Part shown: piece after piece, positions 20,779-63,065 of the stretch | How positions within the stretch are numbered: the first letter of the stretch is position 1 | Layout of the letters: the number at the start of each line of letters is the position of its first letter | Assembly (NCBI GenBank): GCA_963766735.1 | Contig: CAVYBU010000004.1 | Coordinates: 192,001 to 256,000 of the forward strand | Source of the DNA: an uncultured Chloroflexia bacterium | GTDB taxonomy: Bacteria > Chloroflexota > Limnocylindria > Limnocylindrales > CSP1-4 | DNA length: 64,000 bases | Reading direction: 5' to 3' | Translations under genes and position numbers: made by a program | Notes under the pieces: generated by a model | Told to the model about the DNA's origin: nothing | What the model saw: the letters and a program-made list of their open reading frames with translations, nothing else | Databases searched by the model: none

Positions 20779-22449
20779 TCAGGTGACCTCGGGGGTGTCC
20801 GCCAGGTCCTCCGCGAAGATCCGGTGCGCCTCGGCCAGGATGTGCGCTGCGTCGGCATCGGCCGGGAGCGGTGGGATGAGGTCCAGATTCGTGGCAACGC
20901 AGCGGACGCCAACCGAGTGGTCCAGGAATGAGCTGAAGGCCTGCTCGAGGATGGGGCGGCGGCGCTCCGCGACGTCCTTCAGGAACGCCTTCTCCTCCGG
21001 GAAGCCGAGGGTGACGACATTGCCCTCAACGCCGATCGGCCGGCAGTCGATGATCAACGGCTTGACGGCCCGATTGAGATCGGTGATCTGTTCCACGAGG
21101 CGCACCCAGCCATGACGGAGGCGCTCAAGGTCGTCGGTGGGCACGCCGCCGGTACCAGGGACGGGGACGGGGACGGCGAGATCCGGATCCGGGTCCGGGG
21201 CGTGGTCGGGGGCGGGGACGGGGACGGACGTTTCCTCGACCTCGAGCACGGGCGCTGAATCGTCCGGTGCGTCCGGGGCTGGTGGTTCCGGGGGGGGCGG
21301 GGCCACCCTCGGCACAGGCCCCGGATCCCCGACGAAGTCCGTCCGGGCGGTGTCTGCGTGCGCGGGCGGTGCCGGAACGGTGTCTGCGTGCAAGGACGGT
21401 GCCGGGACCCGGGCGGTGGCCGGCTCGAGTAGCACCAGCTCCAGCTGGAGGCGCAGCCCGCCGGCACCGAGGCGCGTCGGATCGATGGACGAGAGCCGGC
21501 GTGCGGCCGCGGCGAGGACGGGCTCCACTGGCTCGCCCGCCGCGAGGCCGGCGACCAGGCGCTCGCGGAGGGCGTCCACGATCTGGTCCAGGAAGATGCG
21601 CAGGTCTCGGCCGCGCTCCTCCAGCTGATCCAGCAACGCGATGCCGGCGGCGGCGTCTCCGCTCGCGTAGGCGATGATGAACCGGCTCACCTGCTCGGAC
21701 TCGGCGAGGCCGAGCAGGTCCCGGACGGCATCCGCCTCGATCCTGCCGTCGGTGGATGACAGGAGCTGGTCGAGGATCGATTCGGCGTCCCGCATCCCGC
21801 CCGCGGCAAGGCGCGCGATGAGGCGCACGGCGTCCGGATCCACGTCGCGCCCGTCGGCCGCCAGAATCCGCTCCAGCTTGCCTCCGATCTCCACCATCGT
21901 GAGCCGCCGGATGTCGAACCGCTGGAGCCGCGACAGGATCGCCGGCGGGAAGTCCTGCGGGTGCGTTGACGCGAACATGAAGACGACGAACTCGGGTGGC
22001 TCCTCGAGCGACTTGAGCAGCGCGTTCCAGGCGTCCTTGGTGATCTGGTGGGCTTCGTCCAGGATGTAGACCTTGCGGGCGAGATCCTGTGGCGCGTACG
22101 CGAGGCGGTCCCGAAGATCGCGCACCGCGTCGATGCCGCGATTGGAGGCGGCATCGATCTCGACCAGGTCCAGCGCACGGCCCTCGCGGATGGCGATGCA
22201 CGGCTCGCAGGCATCGCAGGGGTCCGCGTTGGCACCCAGGTTCCGGCAGTTGAGCGCTTTGGCCAGGATCCTTGCCAGCGACGTCTTGCCGGTGCCGCGG
22301 GGCCCGGTGAACAGGATGGCGTGCGACACGCGCCCGGTGAGGACGGCGTTGCGCAGCGTTGCAACGACCGCCTCCTGCCCGACGATCTCCGAGAACGTCT
22401 GGGCTCGCCAGCGACGGTAGAGGGCCTGGTGGGGAGTCCCTGCGGTCAA
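20779..22449 (-). CDS. dnaX: DNA polymerase III subunit gamma/tau
   Basis: ALYRRWR, GPRGTGKT, zinc module, EIDAASNRG, DEAH; likely TTG start at 22449 with AGGAG, since the longer ORF would overlap the SRP RNA. Confidence 0.95.
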   Translation of the reverse strand: MTAGTPHQALYRRWRAQTFSEIVGQEAVVATLRNAVLTGRVSHAILFTGPRGTGKTSLARILAKALNCRNLGANADPCDACEPCIAIREGRALDLVEIDAASNRGIDAVRDLRDRLAYAPQDLARKVYILDEAHQITKDAWNALLKSLEEPPEFVVFMFASTHPQDFPPAILSRLQRFDIRRLTMVEIGGKLERILAADGRDVDPDAVRLIARLAAGGMRDAESILDQLLSSTDGRIEADAVRDLLGLAESEQVSRFIIAYASGDAAAGIALLDQLEERGRDLRIFLDQIVDALRERLVAGLAAGEPVEPVLAAAARRLSSIDPTRLGAGGLRLQLELVLLEPATARVPAPSLHADTVPAPPAHADTARTDFVGDPGPVPRVAPPPPEPPAPDAPDDSAPVLEVEETSVPVPAPDHAPDPDPDLAVPVPVPGTGGVPTDDLERLRHGWVRLVEQITDLNRAVKPLIIDCRPIGVEGNVVTLGFPEEKAFLKDVAERRRPILEQAFSSFLDHSVGVRCVATNLDLIPPLPADADAAHILAEAHRIFAEDLADTPEVT

Positions 22450-22486
22450 CGACGCTCCTGTGGCGGGCGTGGCGAAGCAAGACGAA

Positions 22487-22756
22487 GTGCCGTGCACCCC
22501 CCGTCGATCCGGACGCTCCCGCGCCCACCGACGTCTGCGACTCGGACCAGGCCGTTCCGCGGCACCCGGCGATCACCGCTGAGTGCTGCTTCCTTCCGGA
22601 CCTGACACGGTTCACGAGTCGCCGCTGCGCGGGACCCGGTCCTCAGCGTCACAAACGTCGTCGGCTCTCGAGAACACCGACCTCGGGGAGGAATTCAGCC
22701 CTGCTGGAGCGGATTGCAGGTACAGGGCACCGCTAGTTCCCCGCCTAGCACGGCAC
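22487..22756 (-). ncRNA. ffs: Large (Alu-domain) bacterial SRP RNA
   Basis: Helix 8 motif GTCAGGTCCGGAAGGAAGCAGC; 5' GTGCCGTGCTAGGCGGGGAA; paired ends; TATCAT -10 upstream; directly upstream of dnaX. Confidence 0.93.
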
Positions 22757-22816: not shown

Positions 22817-22904
22817 TGGCGGAGAGGGCGGGATTCGAACCCGCGATGGGTTGCCCCATACCGCATTTCCAGTGCGGCGCCCTAGGCCTCTAGGCGACCT
22901 CTCC
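22817..22904 (-). tRNA. tRNA-Ser(GGA)
   Basis: GGAGAGGTCGCCTAG, anticodon loop CT GGA AA, long variable arm, CCA. Confidence 0.94.
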
Positions 22905-22958
22905 GCGGAAAAGATACGGCCCGGCGGACCATTGCGCCGGGCCGTGCCGTTATGCAGG

Positions 22959-23044
<86 letters not shown>

Positions 23045-23146: not shown

Positions 23147-23599
23147 TCAGGCGCCGGTTGCGGCGACGTCGACCGCGCCCAGCAGCTCCTCCGCCTCGTC
23201 CCGGCAGATCCCGGAGACCACGGCAAGCGGGCGGCCGAGCTGGGGGTGCTGCGCCAGCTGGATGACTGATCCGGCCGCGCCGTCGAACGGGTTCGGCACC
23301 GCGAAGACCAGCGCCGCCGCGTCGCACCCGAGCATCGCTCCCACGCACATGGGACATGGCTCGATCGTGGTGAAGATCGTGACGTCCGTGAGGCGCGGTG
23401 TGCCGAGCTTGCGGGCCGCGTCCCGCAGCACTGCGATCACCGCATGTGCAGTGGGATCATCCGTCTCGGCAACCCGGTTCGAACCGCGGGCGACCATCGC
23501 GTCGTTCATGACGGCAATGGCGCCGACGGCCGGGGCCCCCCGTGCCAGGGCCACCCGAGCCTCTGCGAGCGCCTCGCCCATGAACAGCTCGTAGTTCAT
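23147..23599 (-). CDS. tadA: TadA-family tRNA adenosine deaminase homolog with catalytic Glu replaced by Val (HAV)
   Basis: MNYELFMGEALAEA, DPTAHAVI, TIEPCPMCVGAM, GAAGSV; syntenic with tRNA-Ser/ffs/dnaX; ATG 7 nt after TATGAT. Confidence 0.88.
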   Translation of the reverse strand: MNYELFMGEALAEARVALARGAPAVGAIAVMNDAMVARGSNRVAETDDPTAHAVIAVLRDAARKLGTPRLTDVTIFTTIEPCPMCVGAMLGCDAAALVFAVPNPFDGAAGSVIQLAQHPQLGRPLAVVSGICRDEAEELLGAVDVAATGA

Positions 23600-23755
23600 G
23601 TGTCGGATCATAGCGACCGGGGTGGGCGGTAGGATGGTGAGGACACGCGTCGGGATCCCCGGCGCCCACCGCGTCGGACGCCAGCCGGAGCCCAGCCCGC
23701 GGCCGACAGAGTGAACCTCCCCCGGCCCACGGCCGGTGACATCAGCGGAGCCCCG

Positions 23756-36504: not shown

Positions 36505-36580
36505 TGGCGCGCCCGGCGGGATTCGAACCCACGACCCCCAGCTCCGCAAGCTGGTGCTCTATCCACTGAGCTACGGGCGC
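36505..36580 (-). tRNA. tRNA-Arg(GCG)
   Basis: GCGCCCG TA GCTC AGTGGATA GAGC A CCAGC TT GCG GA GCTGG ... TTCGAAT ... CGGGCGC G CCA. Confidence 0.93.
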
Positions 36581-36593
36581 ACGATGTGCGATC

Positions 36594-36685
<92 letters not shown>

Positions 36686-62219: not shown

Positions 62220-63065
62220 TCAGACGCGCGTCGCGGCCCGCAGCTTCATCACGAGCGACGCCAGGGCGGAGGTGTTCCGGCCGTCCGGGCCCAGGGCGTC
62301 CACCAGCGCAGAGGCGACGATGACTCCGTCCGCACCCGCCCTTGCGATCGCCCGAACGTGCGCCGGCTTCGACACCCCGAACCCGACCGCGACCGGCACG
62401 GGCGAGACCGCAGTCACGTCCCGGACCAGCTTCGCGACGCTGGTTGGCAGCGACGTCCGGGCACCGGTCACACCGACCAGGGAGACGCAGTAGAGGAACC
62501 CGCCGCTCCGGGCCGCGACGGCGGCACGCCTGGCAGGCGTGGAGGTCGGGGCAACCAGGTACACGACCGCAATACCGGCATCGGCGGCCACCGCCTCGAA
62601 CGGCCCGCCCTCGTCGGGGGTGAGGTCCGCCACGATGACGCCGGCAACGCCGGCCTTCGCCAGGCCGCGCGCCCGGTCCCGGCCATCGCCGCCGCCGATG
62701 AGCTGGTTCGCGTAACCCATCGCAACCACGGGAACGGCGGGGCGAGCCGCGGCGATCCGCGCGGTCAGGGCCAGCGACCGGTCGAACGTGGCGCCCGCCG
62801 CCAGCGCACCCTGGGACGCCCGCTGGAGCGTGGCCCCGTCCGCGAGCGGGTCCGAGTACGGCAGGCCGACCTCGAGCAGGTCCGCCCCTGCATCGATCGC
62901 CCCGCACGCGGCGGCAAAGGAGGCCTCCGCGTCCGGGTAGCCCGCCACGACGTACGGGATCAGGGCCGCGCGCCCATCGGCGCGGGCCCTGGCAAAGGCG
63001 GCCGCGATCCGGCGGGCACCGGCCGTGTCGTTGGTGTGGGCCGGGACCTGCGCCGTGAGGTTCAT
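62220..63065 (-). CDS. trpA: Tryptophan synthase alpha subunit
   Basis: [30 protein letters not shown]. Confidence 0.96.

What the first reader, a model, noticed from the sequence alone, without database searches (positions are those of the whole stretch)
23147..23599. TadA with a Tad3-like inactive site (HAE to HAV) kept intact at its conserved locus
Seen: the deaminase motif reads DPTAHAVI (GTG where GAG is expected), while the zinc ligands (His, PCxxC) are intact. The ORF is full length, has its own TATGAT -10 box, and sits in the tadA-tRNASer-ffs-dnaX neighbourhood. Established: the Glu of H-x-E is the proton shuttle of CDA-fold deaminases, and Val at that position marks the non-catalytic eukaryotic Tad3/ADAT3 subunit. 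Inference: this is a bacterial pseudo-deaminase, either a tRNA-binding or regulatory protein kept after loss of I34, or the inert half of a Tad2/Tad3-like heterodimer. The tRNA-Arg(GCG) 13 kb away supports the first reading.
Basis: partly seen in the sequence, partly recalled or inferred. Interest (0 to 1): 0.85.

Follow-up and report, generated by a model that had tools for sequence, protein, structure and literature searches.

The report
Dead TadA kept after inosine loss
A soil and sediment bacterium (Chloroflexota, class Limnocylindria) keeps its tRNA-editing enzyme TadA in a form that has lost its catalytic residue and its tRNA-gripping helix, while its arginine tRNA no longer needs editing, so the gene seems to have taken on another, still unknown job.

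Summary
ORF 23147-23599(-) encodes a 150-aa TadA-fold protein reading DPTAHAVI, with Val54 (GTG, 23438-23440) where the proton-shuttle Glu belongs. The zinc ligands (His52, Cys82, Cys85) are intact. It sits at the tadA position, upstream of tRNA-Ser(CGA), tRNA-Ser(GGA), ffs and dnaX.

It is not an error or a decaying pseudogene. All 130 orthologous loci read (113 distinct CDS, two Limnocylindria families) carry Val or Ile. Pairwise dN/dS (median 0.31) matches that of canonical TadA in a sister family (0.33).

The Val form tracks the arginine tRNA anticodon. Val-form families carry a tRNA-Arg GCG pattern (85 of 94 genomes) and never the ACG pattern (0 of 94). The sister family has HAE TadA with tRNA-Arg(ACG). 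A streamlined family has GCG and no tadA.

The protein also lacks the C-terminal FFxxxR helix end, and several residues that contact the anticodon loop in S. aureus TadA are changed. This parallels eukaryotic ADAT3, but there is no active TadA partner in the genome.

Best reading: a catalytically dead, probably homodimeric zinc scaffold kept for an unknown non-catalytic role after an A34-to-G34 decoding switch. Similar Glu-less TadA groups turned up among relatives of Bacteroidota and of Omnitrophota/Planctomycetota TadAs. No report of such a protein was found in the papers searched.

The parts
23147..23599 (-). tadA* ORF: 150-aa TadA-fold protein with H52-A53-V54 and E80-P-C82-P-M-C85. It is the positional ortholog of tadA.
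   Evidence: AF2 model pLDDT 94. Foldseek TM 0.94 to TadA structures.
23438..23440 (-). Codon 54, GTG (Val), in place of the proton-shuttle Glu of the HxE motif.
   Evidence: No difference at this place in contigs of DNA runs X1 and X2. Val or Ile in 130 of 130 orthologous loci.
23345..23359 (-). Codons 81-85, PCPMC: the two zinc-ligand cysteines. They also lie in the predicted dimer interface.
   Evidence: E80, P81, C82, M84 and C85 are invariant in the 87-row alignment. Interface residues 82-88.
23147..23182 (-). Short, non-conserved C-terminal tail (residues about 140-150 plus the stop codon). It replaces the FFxxxR end of the canonical TadA C-terminal helix.
   Evidence: Tail residues 145-150 have pLDDT under 50.
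23607..23612 (-). TATGAT -10-like hexamer 7 nt before the ATG, with no Shine-Dalgarno sequence. This suggests a leaderless mRNA.
   Evidence: The consensus of 93 family-f1 upstream regions keeps TAtgaT at this spacing. The simple sigma-70 scan found no full -35/-10 pair.
22959..23044 (-). tRNA-Ser(CGA), immediately downstream of tadA*. No terminator-like site lies between them.
   Evidence: The same order is seen in 20 of 20 f4 loci.
22817..22904 (-). tRNA-Ser(GGA).
22490..22753 (-). ffs, bacterial large SRP RNA.
   Evidence: RF01854, 186 bits.
20779..22497 (-). dnaX (DNA polymerase III gamma/tau). The listed ORF start overlaps ffs, so the true start probably lies downstream.
   Evidence: TIGR02397, 358 bits, over its cut-off.
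36505..36580 (-). tRNA-Arg(GCG), anticodon loop UUGCGGA. It is the only decoder of CGU/CGC found and stands in place of the usual bacterial tRNA-Arg(ACG).
   Evidence: 70.7 bits. The GCG pattern is present in 85 of 94 f1+f4 genomes.
36594..36685 (-). tRNA-Ser(GCU), just upstream of tRNA-Arg(GCG).
   Evidence: The same pair lies next to tadA* in f4 locus L188. tRNA-Arg(gcg) also lies 1.3 kb from the tRNA-Ser pair in f2 genome G040.

Best explanation
This is the direct descendant of tadA, at the same locus, in a lineage that stopped using wobble inosine.

The ancestor of two Limnocylindria families changed its tRNA-Arg from A34 (edited to I34) to G34. It already had tRNA-Arg(UCG) and tRNA-Arg(CCG), so all four CGN codons stay readable without editing.

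Once freed from its essential job, TadA lost three things:
- the proton-shuttle Glu (now Val);
- several residues that contact the adenine or the anticodon loop;
- the C-terminal end of the helix that holds the anticodon stem-loop.

This happened on one long stem branch. What remains is a compact, acidic zinc-binding domain that most likely still forms the TadA-type homodimer. It has been held under purifying selection ever since. I therefore read it as a pseudo-enzyme with a new, non-catalytic role, not as a relic.

Shown by sequence and comparison:
- the substitutions and their fixation;
- the selective constraint;
- the match between TadA type and tRNA-Arg anticodon;
- the lack of a TadA paralog in the genome.

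Inferred, not shown:
- loss of deaminase activity and of anticodon-loop binding;
- the homodimer;
- the existence of a new function.

My guess for that function is binding of a protein or RNA partner. The likely surface is the newly conserved N-terminal helix (MNYELFM) and the helix-5 face (R132, E135, A136), carried on the zinc-stabilised dimer. This guess is weak.
For: **Identity and position**
- The fold and the best sequence matches are TadA.
- Canonical HAE TadA of sister family f3 lies within about 2-5 kb of the same tRNA-Ser genes on the same contig. This was seen in G159, G137 and G067.

**Fixation**
- All 30 genus loci have Val at the Glu position.
- Adding 80 named Chloroflexota and Limnocylindria loci gives 110 loci: HAV 101, HPV 8, HAI 1, Glu 0.
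- All 20 family-f4 loci read HAV, at 50-58% identity to the window protein.

**Selection**
- NG86 dN/dS across 113 distinct CDS has median 0.31 (6240 of 6328 pairs used).
- The control, 30 canonical f3 TadA genes, has median 0.33 (430 of 435 pairs).

**Single origin**
- The f1 and f4 Val proteins form one clade (SH-aLRT 97) on a stem of 0.72 changes per column, in a tree of 81 rows.

**Match with the tRNA, in the same 151 class genomes**

| Family | TadA state | GCG pattern | ACG pattern |
|---|---|---|---|
| f1 | Val form | 39/44 (plus the window's genome) | 0/44 |
| f4 | Val form | 46/50 | 0/50 |
| f3 | canonical HAE | 2/49 | 23/49 |
| f2 | no TadA hit (0/6) | 6/6 | 0/6 |

- All 30 top class loci read DPTxHAE and end in a FFxxxR-type (in one, AFxxxR) C-terminal helix. 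Of these, 28 are f3, one is f5, and one is a 3.4-kb contig of an f4 genome.
- ARAGORN finds tRNA-Arg(acg) in 6 f3 loci.

**Own genome (93.85% complete)**
- Arg tRNAs found: GCG 1, UCG 2, CCG 1, CCU 1, UCU 2, ACG 0.
- The single A34 call, tRNA-Pro(agg), has no Rfam tRNA match at E up to 1.
- There are only three CDA-fold genes: this one, a guanine deaminase (1wkq, E 3e-49) and an HGE cytosine-deaminase-like protein.

**Loss of the TadA tool-kit (111 Val-form against 77 HAE proteins)**
- E54 to V (frequency 1.00 against 1.00).
- R93 (0.97) to D (0.80).
- D103 (0.83) to N (0.78).
- K105 (0.78) becomes variable.
- N122 and H123 (0.90, 0.95) are lost.
- F143, F144 and R148 (0.99, 1.00, 1.00) are absent.
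- N41 (0.99) is Asp in 57%.
- These positions map to S. aureus R94, D104, K106 and N123 and to the E. coli F148/F149 pair (F149 is the one the paper names). Passages of PMC3711424 name them as anticodon-loop contacts. Passages of PMC8216470 say the C-terminal helix is essential for anticodon stem-loop binding and that N42 binds the adenine.
- The Val-form proteins are more acidic: median net charge -5 against -2, and -7 for the window protein.

**Dimer**
- A two-copy model scored 0.85, against 0.39 for the best of 3 controls.
- That mark was reached by 20 of 30 proteins solved as pairs of one chain and by 1 of 23 solved as single chains.
- The three runs agree in at least 98% of their contacts, and partner pLDDT is at least 90.
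- TadA homodimers are solved, so this pass may come from memory. It shows likeness, not binding.

**Decoding logic**
- Arg codon use in 1170 long ORFs is CGC 45%, CGG 36%, CGT 7% and CGA 5.7%.
- A G34 tRNA therefore pairs by Watson-Crick with the commonest Arg codon.
Against: - No activity or binding assay exists. Inactivity rests on what is known of the HxE Glu in CDA-fold deaminases.
- The gene can be dispensed with:
  - Family f2 (genomes of about 1.1 Mb) has none (0 of 24, 0 of 6).
  - Two f3 genomes with the GCG pattern, G064 (97% complete) and G110 (86%), have none either, also at the syntenic locus.
- dN/dS of about 0.3 is only moderate constraint. NG86 on 70% G+C genes underestimates dS.
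- No partner, ligand or operon gene points to a function. The proposed binding surface is inferred from conservation only, without mapping onto coordinates.
- The ACG pattern is strict: it found only 23 of 49 f3 genomes. Its silence in f1 and f4 is therefore weaker than the numbers look. Only the window's own genome had a full tRNA scan.
- Extra HAE TadA-like hits occur in 2 of the 94 f1+f4 genomes: G109 on a 3.4-kb contig, and an odd ORF in G156.
- Some tallies include genomes flagged as unpublished: G122, G154, G142, G151, G176 and G186. No conclusion depends on them alone.
Confidence: 0.7

Rival explanations
1. It is a neutral relic. The gene is a dead tadA that has not yet been deleted. 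It may persist only because its promoter and transcript also serve the downstream tRNA-Ser, ffs and dnaX genes.
For: - The gene was lost without trace in family f2 and in two f3 genomes that carry the GCG pattern.
- No terminator-like site separates it from tRNA-Ser(CGA).
- The Rhodothermus-like Val group looks only partly degraded.
Against: - The frame is intact in 130 of 130 loci, across two families that differ by about 50% in protein sequence.
- dN/dS (0.31) equals that of working TadA in the sister family (0.33).
- New invariant residues appear that canonical TadA lacks: M1-N2-Y3-E4-L5, E9, A34, M35, R63, A116, S129 and A136.
- A promoter role would not constrain amino acids.
Confidence: 0.1
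2. It is still an enzyme. The zinc site is kept because the protein deaminates, or otherwise hydrolyses, some other substrate, with another residue or water network replacing the Glu.
For: - His and both Cys ligands are invariant, as are D48, P49 and T50.
- The protein is under selection.
Against: - No newly conserved acidic residue was found apart from E4 and E9 at the start of helix 1. I did not measure their distance from the zinc site.
- The adenine contact N41 is relaxed.
- A86, next to the second Cys, becomes Val in three Glu-less groups. I read that as filling the pocket; this is inference.
- ADAT3 keeps the same zinc triad while inactive (passages of PMC8216470).
- The conserved motifs also lie in the predicted dimer interface, which explains their retention structurally.
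Confidence: 0.08
3. It is the inert half of a Tad2/Tad3-like heterodimer, paired with an HAE deaminase encoded elsewhere in the genome.
For: - Eukaryotic ADAT3 gives the precedent: Val for Glu, a shortened C-terminal helix and a retained zinc site.
- The genome does encode one HAE relative, with 38% identity over residues 15-124.
Against: - That relative is a full-length guanine deaminase (1wkq, E 3e-49) scoring 68.6 bits on the TadA model, against a cut-off of 150.
- Such a second hit is seen in only 14 of the 37 genus genomes, against 30 that hold the Val ortholog.
- No A34 tRNA exists for such a complex to edit.
- The heterodimer itself was not modelled.
Confidence: 0.04
4. It is an artefact: a sequencing or assembly error, or a contaminating contig.
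For: None found.
Against: - The same codon stands in contigs of DNA runs from two studies.
- Val or Ile is present in 130 of 130 loci from independent assemblies.
- The gene lies on a contig whose neighbourhood is conserved across the class.
Confidence: 0.005

Closest known systems
Bacterial tRNA adenosine(34) deaminase TadA (E. coli 1z3a, S. aureus 2b3j, B. subtilis 7cph)
   Same: - Same fold: TM 0.94, rmsd about 1 A.
- 31-39% identity, with an ungapped alignment to E. coli TadA residues 7-145.
- Same zinc ligands and a predicted TadA-like homodimer.
- Same locus relative to the tRNA-Ser genes, ffs and dnaX as canonical TadA in the sister family.
   Different: - Glu to Val in the HxE motif.
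- Anticodon-loop contacts changed: R94 to D, D104 to N, K106 to F, N123 to G (S. aureus numbering).
- The FFxxxR end of the C-terminal helix is absent.
- Below the NCBIfam equivalog cut-off, 103 against 150 bits.
- No tRNA-Arg(ACG) substrate gene in the genome.
Eukaryotic ADAT3/Tad3, the inactive subunit of the ADAT2/ADAT3 wobble deaminase
   Same: - Val at the Glu position.
- The His/Cys/Cys zinc triad is kept.
- The C-terminal helix is shortened.
- The protein is acidic overall. ADAT3's surface above its zinc pocket is reported as negative.

The ADAT3 features come from passages of PMC8216470.
   Different: - It is not related by descent. The protein is nested in bacterial TadA on the tree, and its fold match to ADAT3 is weaker (TM 0.83-0.84).
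- It has no N-terminal tRNA-binding domain (150 aa in all).
- It has no active ADAT2-like partner.
- No conserved C-terminal Asp caps the zinc site. The tail is variable and its pLDDT is under 50.
Decoding without TadA in Mollicutes (Yokobori et al. 2013, PMC3711424; abstract and passages read)
   Same: The same end state of the tRNA set: tRNA-Arg(ACG) replaced by tRNA-Arg(GCG) alongside tRNA-Arg(UCG), with no I34 needed.
   Different: - In Mollicutes tadA is lost, in reduced parasite genomes.
- Here the genome is free-living, 3.6 Mb and 70.6% G+C, and tRNA-Arg(CCG) is kept.
- The tadA gene is retained in an altered form under selection.
- Complete loss, as in Mollicutes, is seen only in family f2 and in two f3 genomes.
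Guanine deaminase GuaD (B. subtilis 1wkq), the nearest paralog in this genome
   Same: CDA fold of the helix-4 division, about 160 aa, dimeric family. It shares 38% identity with the window protein over residues 15-124.
   Different: - GuaD keeps HAE and ends in the family's C-terminal Tyr.
- The window protein matches TadA far better than GuaD: E 2e-26 against 6e-18.
- The window protein sits at the tadA locus.

Membership tests
TadA (tRNA adenosine(34) deaminase) | H(C)xE catalytic motif with the proton-shuttle Glu | tested here: not met
   The motif reads H52-A53-V54. Glu is absent in 130 of 130 orthologous loci.
TadA (tRNA adenosine(34) deaminase) | Zinc ligands His plus PCxxC, and the EPCxMC signature | tested here: met
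   H52, E80, P81, C82, M84 and C85 are invariant in the 87-row alignment.
TadA (tRNA adenosine(34) deaminase) | Score above the curated NCBIfam equivalog cut-off (NF008113, 150 bits) | tested here: not met
   103.1 bits. The control shows the model reaches its cut-off in only 6 of the 12 well-known genomes in which it matches (14 were searched), so this test is strict.
TadA (tRNA adenosine(34) deaminase) | Long C-terminal helix with conserved FFxxxR, needed for anticodon stem-loop binding | tested here: not met
   F143, F144 and R148 have frequency 0.99-1.00 in 77 HAE proteins and are absent or variable in 111 Val-form proteins. The role of the helix is taken from passages of PMC8216470.
TadA (tRNA adenosine(34) deaminase) | Cognate substrate gene tRNA-Arg(ACG) in the genome | tested here: not met
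   ARAGORN on all 35 contigs finds no ACG and one GCG. The ACG pattern matches 0 of 94 f1+f4 genomes. The genome is 93.85% complete.
TadA (tRNA adenosine(34) deaminase) | Orthology by fold, best match and conserved gene position | tested here: met
   The Val clade branches among TadA sequences on the tree of 81 rows. It has the same tRNA-Ser neighbours as HAE TadA in family f3.
TadA (tRNA adenosine(34) deaminase) | A-to-I activity on A34 | not testable with these tools
   This needs an enzyme assay or tRNA sequencing.
ADAT3/Tad3 (inactive deaminase subunit) | Val in place of the catalytic Glu, with the zinc triad kept | tested here: met
   The ADAT3 feature is taken from passages of PMC8216470.
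ADAT3/Tad3 (inactive deaminase subunit) | Shortened C-terminal helix whose tail caps the zinc site with an Asp as fourth ligand | tested here: inconclusive
   The helix is short: it ends at about residue 146, with no FFxxxR. The tail is not conserved and is modelled at pLDDT under 50, so capping is neither shown nor excluded.
ADAT3/Tad3 (inactive deaminase subunit) | N-terminal tRNA-binding domain | tested here: not met
   The protein is a single 150-aa deaminase domain that starts at helix 1.
ADAT3/Tad3 (inactive deaminase subunit) | Obligate heterodimer with an active ADAT2/TadA paralog | tested here: not met
   No second TadA in the genome. The two-copy model reached the mark: 0.85 against 0.39 for the best of 3 controls. 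That mark was reached by 20 of 30 proteins solved as pairs of one chain and by 1 of 23 solved as single chains. The pass may come from memory of solved TadA dimers.
ADAT3/Tad3 (inactive deaminase subunit) | Descent from the eukaryotic Tad2/Tad3 duplication | tested here: not met
   The sequence and fold matches are closer to bacterial TadA than to ADAT3: E 2e-26 against 1e-9, and TM 0.94 against 0.83. The resemblance is therefore convergent.

The most novel reading that the evidence does not exclude
Glu-less TadA may be a recurrent, previously unrecognised class of bacterial pseudo-deaminase.

On this reading, whenever a lineage gives up wobble inosine, tadA is either deleted or converted into a dead, helix-trimmed zinc dimer that takes on a new binding function. 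The conversion uses the same few changes each time: Glu to Val, Ile or Thr, Ala86 to Val, and loss of R93, K105, H123 and FFxxxR.

This seems to have happened in Limnocylindria and again in at least two other groups: one among Rhodothermus-like (Bacteroidota) TadAs and one or two among Omnitrophota/Planctomycetota-like TadAs.

It mirrors the ADAT3 state in a homodimeric setting. That would show that the inert-subunit form can arise and be kept without a catalytic partner, which bears on how the eukaryotic ADAT2/ADAT3 heterodimer arose.
Probability: 0.3. Interest if true: 0.85.

Novelty: new variant of a known kind. Interest (0 to 1): 0.72.

Why it matters
TadA is treated as near-universal and essential in bacteria, and wobble inosine in tRNA-Arg as a bacterial hallmark. 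Genome annotation takes a tadA-like gene as evidence for I34.

- **A counter-example in free-living bacteria.** A large, non-reduced soil and sediment lineage has moved to the G34/U34/C34 strategy that Yokobori et al. describe in Mollicutes, yet keeps the gene in a dead form. Presence of tadA therefore does not imply inosine. NCBI's own model already scores this protein under its cut-off, and one relative from another phylum is named only 'nucleoside deaminase'.
- **A bacterial parallel to ADAT3.** The protein shares Val for Glu, a trimmed helix and a retained zinc site. This gives a simple system for asking what a dead deaminase domain is good for, and which changes are needed to shut a TadA pocket.
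- **A natural series within one class.** Limnocylindria holds all three states: HAE with ACG, Val form with GCG, and no gene with GCG. That makes the order of events in losing a tRNA modification directly testable.
- **Engineering.** TadA is the scaffold of adenine base editors, so naturally inactivated variants that still fold and are predicted to dimerise may be useful as inert partners or controls.

Tried and rejected
- **tRNA-Pro(agg).** ARAGORN called an 80-nt tRNA-Pro(agg) on contig C30. It would have been an A34 tRNA, but no Rfam tRNA match appears at E up to 1 and it lies inside long open frames. I rejected it as a false call.
- **Tandem tRNA query.** I searched family f3 with the tRNA-Ser(GCU)-tRNA-Arg tandem as a DNA query. 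The pair is not kept there and the hits were mostly other tRNAs. I replaced this with two anticodon-specific patterns.
- **Heterodimer.** The idea of a heterodimer with the HAE paralog was set aside on the phyletic pattern and on the paralog's identity as guanine deaminase. The heterodimer was not modelled.
- **Zinc capping by the tail.** The model leaves residues 145-150 at pLDDT under 50 and the tail is not conserved. No conclusion.
- **Expression.**
  - One metatranscriptome library (X16) has low-depth contigs (2-3.5) over 23248-23345, 23316-23477 and 23513-23721. The other (X15) has none over the ORF.
  - Both cover ffs at depths in the hundreds to thousands.
  - Contigs cannot show transcription, and one of them runs past the predicted leaderless start. 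I use this neither for nor against expression or the leaderless reading.
- **Promoter scan.** The simple sigma-70 scan found no full promoter. The -10-only, leaderless reading rests on conservation.
- **P0087 in Chloroflexota.** A search of 401 Chloroflexota genomes with P0087 found only f4 proteins, at 47-49% identity. P0087 itself belongs with Rhodothermus-like TadA.
- **Other Glu-less groups.** I could not reach their genomic context or tRNA sets.
- **Literature.** Six searches and passages of five papers turned up no description of a bacterial Glu-less TadA. Supplementary tables were not viewable and might list such cases, notably those of PMC6063277 and PMC3239186.
Full report
**What is there**

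The window is part of a 3.62-Mb, 70.6% G+C genome in 35 contigs, 93.85% complete. Record titles of the closest loci place it in Chloroflexota, class Limnocylindria.

The minus-strand ORF 23147-23599 gives a 150-aa protein (P0001). Residues 48-55 read DPTAHAVI and residues 80-85 read EPCPMC. The Val54 codon is GTG, at 23438-23440.

- Pfam sees a CDA-type deaminase domain.
- The best NCBIfam model is the TadA equivalog, at 103 bits against a 150-bit cut-off.
- The best solved relatives are TadA proteins, at E 2e-26. The alignment to E. coli TadA residues 7-145 has no gaps and stops just before the end of the C-terminal helix.
- An AlphaFold2 model built on an 87-row alignment has mean pLDDT 94. 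It superposes on TadA structures at TM 0.94, on ADAT2 at 0.87 and on ADAT3 at 0.83-0.84.
- Downstream on the same strand lie tRNA-Ser(CGA), tRNA-Ser(GGA), SRP RNA and dnaX.
- A TATGAT hexamer stands 7 nt before the ATG, and there is no Shine-Dalgarno sequence.

The one qualification is that the protein is shorter than canonical TadA at its C-terminus.

**Not an error, not a decaying gene**

Contigs of two DNA runs from different studies cover codon 54 with no difference there. One of these runs may be the source sample.

Orthologs were found in 29 of 36 other species genomes of the same genus, at 70-93% identity. With the window's own copy that gives 30 loci, and all 30 have Val at the Glu position (27 PTAHAV, 1 PTSHAV, 2 PTAHPV).

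A scan of species genomes found 338 stretches encoding relatives. The best 80 were kept. Together with the 30 genus loci this makes 110 loci: HAV 101, HPV 8, HAI 1, and none with Glu.

A second family of the class (f4) has the same protein at 50-58% identity. All 20 f4 loci that I fetched read DPTAHAV and stand in the same position before the two tRNA-Ser genes.

Pairwise NG86 dN/dS over 113 distinct coding sequences has a median of 0.31 (6240 of 6328 pairs used), and 0.08-0.29 by dS bin in a 60-sequence subset. Thirty canonical TadA genes of the sister family, treated the same way, give 0.33 (430 of 435 pairs). NG86 is crude at this G+C content, so the control is the fair comparison. By that comparison the Val form is as constrained as working TadA.

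**The tRNA side**

ARAGORN on the whole genome made 62 tRNA calls. For Arg it finds GCG (1), UCG (2), CCG (1), CCU (1) and UCU (2), and no ACG.

The only A34 call was an 80-nt tRNA-Pro(agg). It has no Rfam tRNA match and lies inside long open frames, so I treat it as false.

The genome holds three CDA-fold genes in all:
- this one;
- a guanine deaminase (1wkq, E 3e-49);
- an HGE cytosine-deaminase-like protein.

So the genome has neither an active TadA nor a substrate for one.

**Family by family**

I searched the same 151 genomes of the class (at least 80% complete) three times: with the TadA model, with a tRNA-Arg pattern carrying GCG, and with the same pattern carrying ACG.

| Family | TadA-family hit | TadA type | GCG pattern | ACG pattern |
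|---|---|---|---|---|
| f1 (the window's family) | 39/44 | Val form | 39/44, plus the window's genome | 0/44 |
| f4 | 49/50 | Val form | 46/50 | 0/50 |
| f3 | 47/49 | canonical HAE | 2/49 | 23/49 |
| f2 (genomes about 1.1 Mb, same order as f1) | 0/6 (and 0/24) | none | 6/6 | 0/6 |

- The f3 hits score higher (130-157 bits) and reach the end of the profile.
- All 30 best class loci read DPTxHAE and end in LLxxFFxxxR, or AFxxxR in one. Of these, 28 are f3, one is f5 and one is a short contig of an f4 genome.
- ARAGORN finds tRNA-Arg(acg) in six f3 loci.
- The two f3 genomes with the GCG pattern are G064 (97% complete) and G110 (86%). They have no tadA anywhere. At the syntenic place before tRNA-Ser(CGA) they carry other genes and no remnant.
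- An f2 genome likewise has no remnant between its tRNA-Arg(gcg) and tRNA-Ser(cga).

The class therefore shows three states:
1. HAE with ACG.
2. Val form with GCG.
3. No gene with GCG.

There are caveats.
- The ACG pattern is strict and misses half of f3.
- The genomes are related, so these are not independent counts.
- Six genomes in the tallies are flagged as unpublished.

**One origin, then constraint**

In a maximum-likelihood tree of 81 TadA-family proteins, the f1 and f4 Val proteins form one clade (SH-aLRT 97). The clade sits on a stem of 0.72 changes per column, which is long beside the median end branch of 0.14. I used the quick search and did not remove the catalytic column.

A burst of change followed by constraint is what a change of function looks like. 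By the taxonomy codes f2 shares an order with f1, so its lack of the gene is best read as later loss. That step is inference.

**What was lost and what was gained**

I compared 111 Val-form proteins with 77 HAE proteins column by column. P0001 residue i corresponds to S. aureus TadA residue i+1 and E. coli TadA residue i+5. This offset is checked on H, E, the two Cys and N42 as quoted in PMC8216470.

Changes in the Val clade:

| P0001 position | Canonical residue (frequency) | Val clade |
|---|---|---|
| 54 | E (1.00) | V (1.00) |
| 41 (adenine contact) | N (0.99) | Asp in 57% |
| 23 (first V of EVPV) | V (0.94) | variable |
| 93 | R (0.97) | D (0.80) |
| 103 | D (0.83) | N (0.78) |
| 105 | K (0.78) | variable |
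| 122, 123 | N (0.90), H (0.95) | lost |
| 143, 144, 148 | F (0.99), F (1.00), R (1.00) | absent |

Passages of Yokobori et al. 2013 name S. aureus Arg94, Asp104, Lys106 and Asn123 and E. coli Phe149 as contacts with the anticodon loop. Passages of Dias et al. 2021 state that TadA's long C-terminal helix is essential for stem-loop binding.

The Val proteins are also more acidic. Median net charge is -5 against -2, and the window protein is -7 with pI 4.6.

Some positions became invariant only in the Val clade:
- the N-terminus MNYELFM;
- E9, A34, M35 and R63;
- F76 (from Tyr), V86 (from Ala) and L90;
- A116, S129, R132 and A136.

The motifs shared with real TadA, DPTAH and EPCxMCxGA, lie in the predicted dimer interface (residues 43-50, 55-70, 82-92 and 106-122).

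The dimer interface comes from a two-copy model.
- It scored 0.85, against 0.39 for the best of 3 controls.
- That mark was reached by 20 of 30 proteins solved as pairs of one chain and by 1 of 23 solved as single chains.
- The runs agree in at least 98% of their contacts, and pLDDT is at least 90.

TadA dimers are solved, so this pass may come from memory. It shows likeness, not binding.

**How it most likely works**

*Decoding.* G34 reads CGC and CGU, U34 reads CGA (and CGG), and C34 reads CGG. In 1170 long ORFs of this genome, CGC is 45% of Arg codons, CGG 36%, CGU 7% and CGA 5.7%. A G34 tRNA thus pairs by Watson-Crick with the commonest codon. f3 genomes already carry tRNA-Arg(UCG) beside ACG, so one A-to-G change in the anticodon was enough to make TadA dispensable. 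That ordering is inference.

*The protein.* Without the Glu and without most of the loop contacts, I expect neither deamination nor TadA-style binding of an anticodon loop. The zinc site and the dimer interface are kept as scaffold. The newly fixed N-terminal helix and helix-5 residues are my candidate for a new binding surface. Its partner is unknown.

I put about 0.7 on the reading of a selected, non-catalytic pseudo-deaminase. Rival readings get about 0.1 for a neutral relic, 0.08 for a still-active enzyme, 0.04 for a heterodimer subunit, and effectively zero for an artefact.

**Comparison with what is known**

The protein is a TadA by descent, fold and position. It fails four defining tests:
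- the catalytic Glu;
- the equivalog score;
- the C-terminal helix;
- the presence of a substrate tRNA.

It works like ADAT3 in three ways: Val for Glu, a kept zinc triad and a shortened helix. It is not an ADAT3, because:
- it has no N-terminal domain;
- it has no active partner;
- it shows no conserved capping Asp;
- it has bacterial ancestry.

The tRNA end state matches the one described for some Mollicutes. There, however, tadA is deleted and the genomes are reduced.

Six literature searches and passages of five papers gave no report of a bacterial Glu-less TadA. Supplements could not be read.

**Seen in passing, and bearing on novelty**

Among the best 150 of 11,326 hits in a library of 1.84 billion representatives, 100 read HxE, 35 HxV and 3 otherwise. 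Twelve showed no motif.

Following up two outliers showed further Glu-less groups outside Chloroflexota.
- Six HAV proteins form one clade (SH-aLRT 96) nested among Rhodothermus- and Longibacter-like HAE TadAs. The other 112 of the 119 listed relatives that show the motif read HAE, and 2 show none.
- A second group reads HPI, HAV or HAI. One member is named 'nucleoside deaminase [Candidatus Omnitrophica]'.
- A related pair reads HAV and HAT. Both groups sit among Planctomycetota-like HAE TadAs.

In all of these groups most of the same canonical sites (V23, N41, R93, K105, H123, F143, F144, R148) are relaxed, and their HAE neighbours keep them nearly without exception. Ala86 to Val recurs in three of the groups.

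I could not reach their genomes, so their tRNA-Arg anticodons are unknown.

**Verdict**

The finding is real, and its main interpretation holds. I classify it as a new variant of a known kind and consider it of good interest to people working on tRNA modification, pseudo-enzymes and the origin of ADAT2/ADAT3. What the protein now does remains open.

Noticed in passing
Proteins P0087, P0152, P0154, P0159, P0163, P0180; P0124, P0271, P0272; P0307, P0352 (not in the window): Other Glu-less TadA groups occur outside Chloroflexota. One (HAV) is nested in Rhodothermus/Longibacter-like TadA. One or two (HPI/HAV/HAI and HAV/HAT) sit among Omnitrophota/Planctomycetota-like TadA. Most of the same canonical contact sites are relaxed in each, and Ala86 to Val recurs in three groups. 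Their tRNA sets could not be reached.
   Followed up: partly
Genomes G064 and G110 (family f3); loci L214, L215, L219, L220: Two species inside the otherwise canonical family carry a tRNA-Arg GCG pattern and have no tadA, also not at the syntenic locus. This looks like separate, more recent switches that ended in outright loss.
   Followed up: partly
G109:C60:1472-1915 (L117/L199); G156:C3:150930-151301 (L225); G190:C1:2492528-2492947 (L224): Stray HAE deaminases occur in Val-form genomes. G109 has a canonical TadA on a 3.4-kb contig, which may be contamination. G156 has a TadA-like ORF with a garbled second half. G190 (same genus as the window) has a distinct HAE nucleoside-deaminase paralog without FFxxxR.
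   Followed up: partly
window 62581-62675 (-): ARAGORN calls a 95-nt tRNA-Ala(ggc), far longer than a normal tRNA-Ala. It may hold an insert or be a false call.
   Followed up: no
Whole genome G000, e.g. C2:79612-79702: The tRNA list includes tRNA-Ile(tat), which is unusual for bacteria (recalled), and tRNA-SeC. It also has three copies each of Trp, His and Asp, and a 91-nt tRNA-Arg(tcg). Some of these may reflect the 4.2% contamination estimate.
   Followed up: no
window 23600-23650 and upstream regions of loci L007-L116 and L177-L196: Family f1 has a conserved TATGAT/TATCAT 7 nt before the ATG and no Shine-Dalgarno sequence, which suggests a leaderless mRNA. Family f4 has a TAGACT about 40 nt upstream and a GGAGG-type Shine-Dalgarno sequence. 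The same gene thus has two kinds of start region.
   Followed up: partly
window 22615-22721 (ffs): Contigs of two RNA libraries join 22615 to 22721, skipping 105 bases of the SRP RNA, at high depth. These are probably relatives with a shorter SRP RNA rather than processing.
   Followed up: no
window 22916-22945 (-): A terminator-like G+C-rich hairpin with a T-run lies between the two tRNA-Ser genes. None lies between tadA* and the first tRNA-Ser.
   Followed up: no
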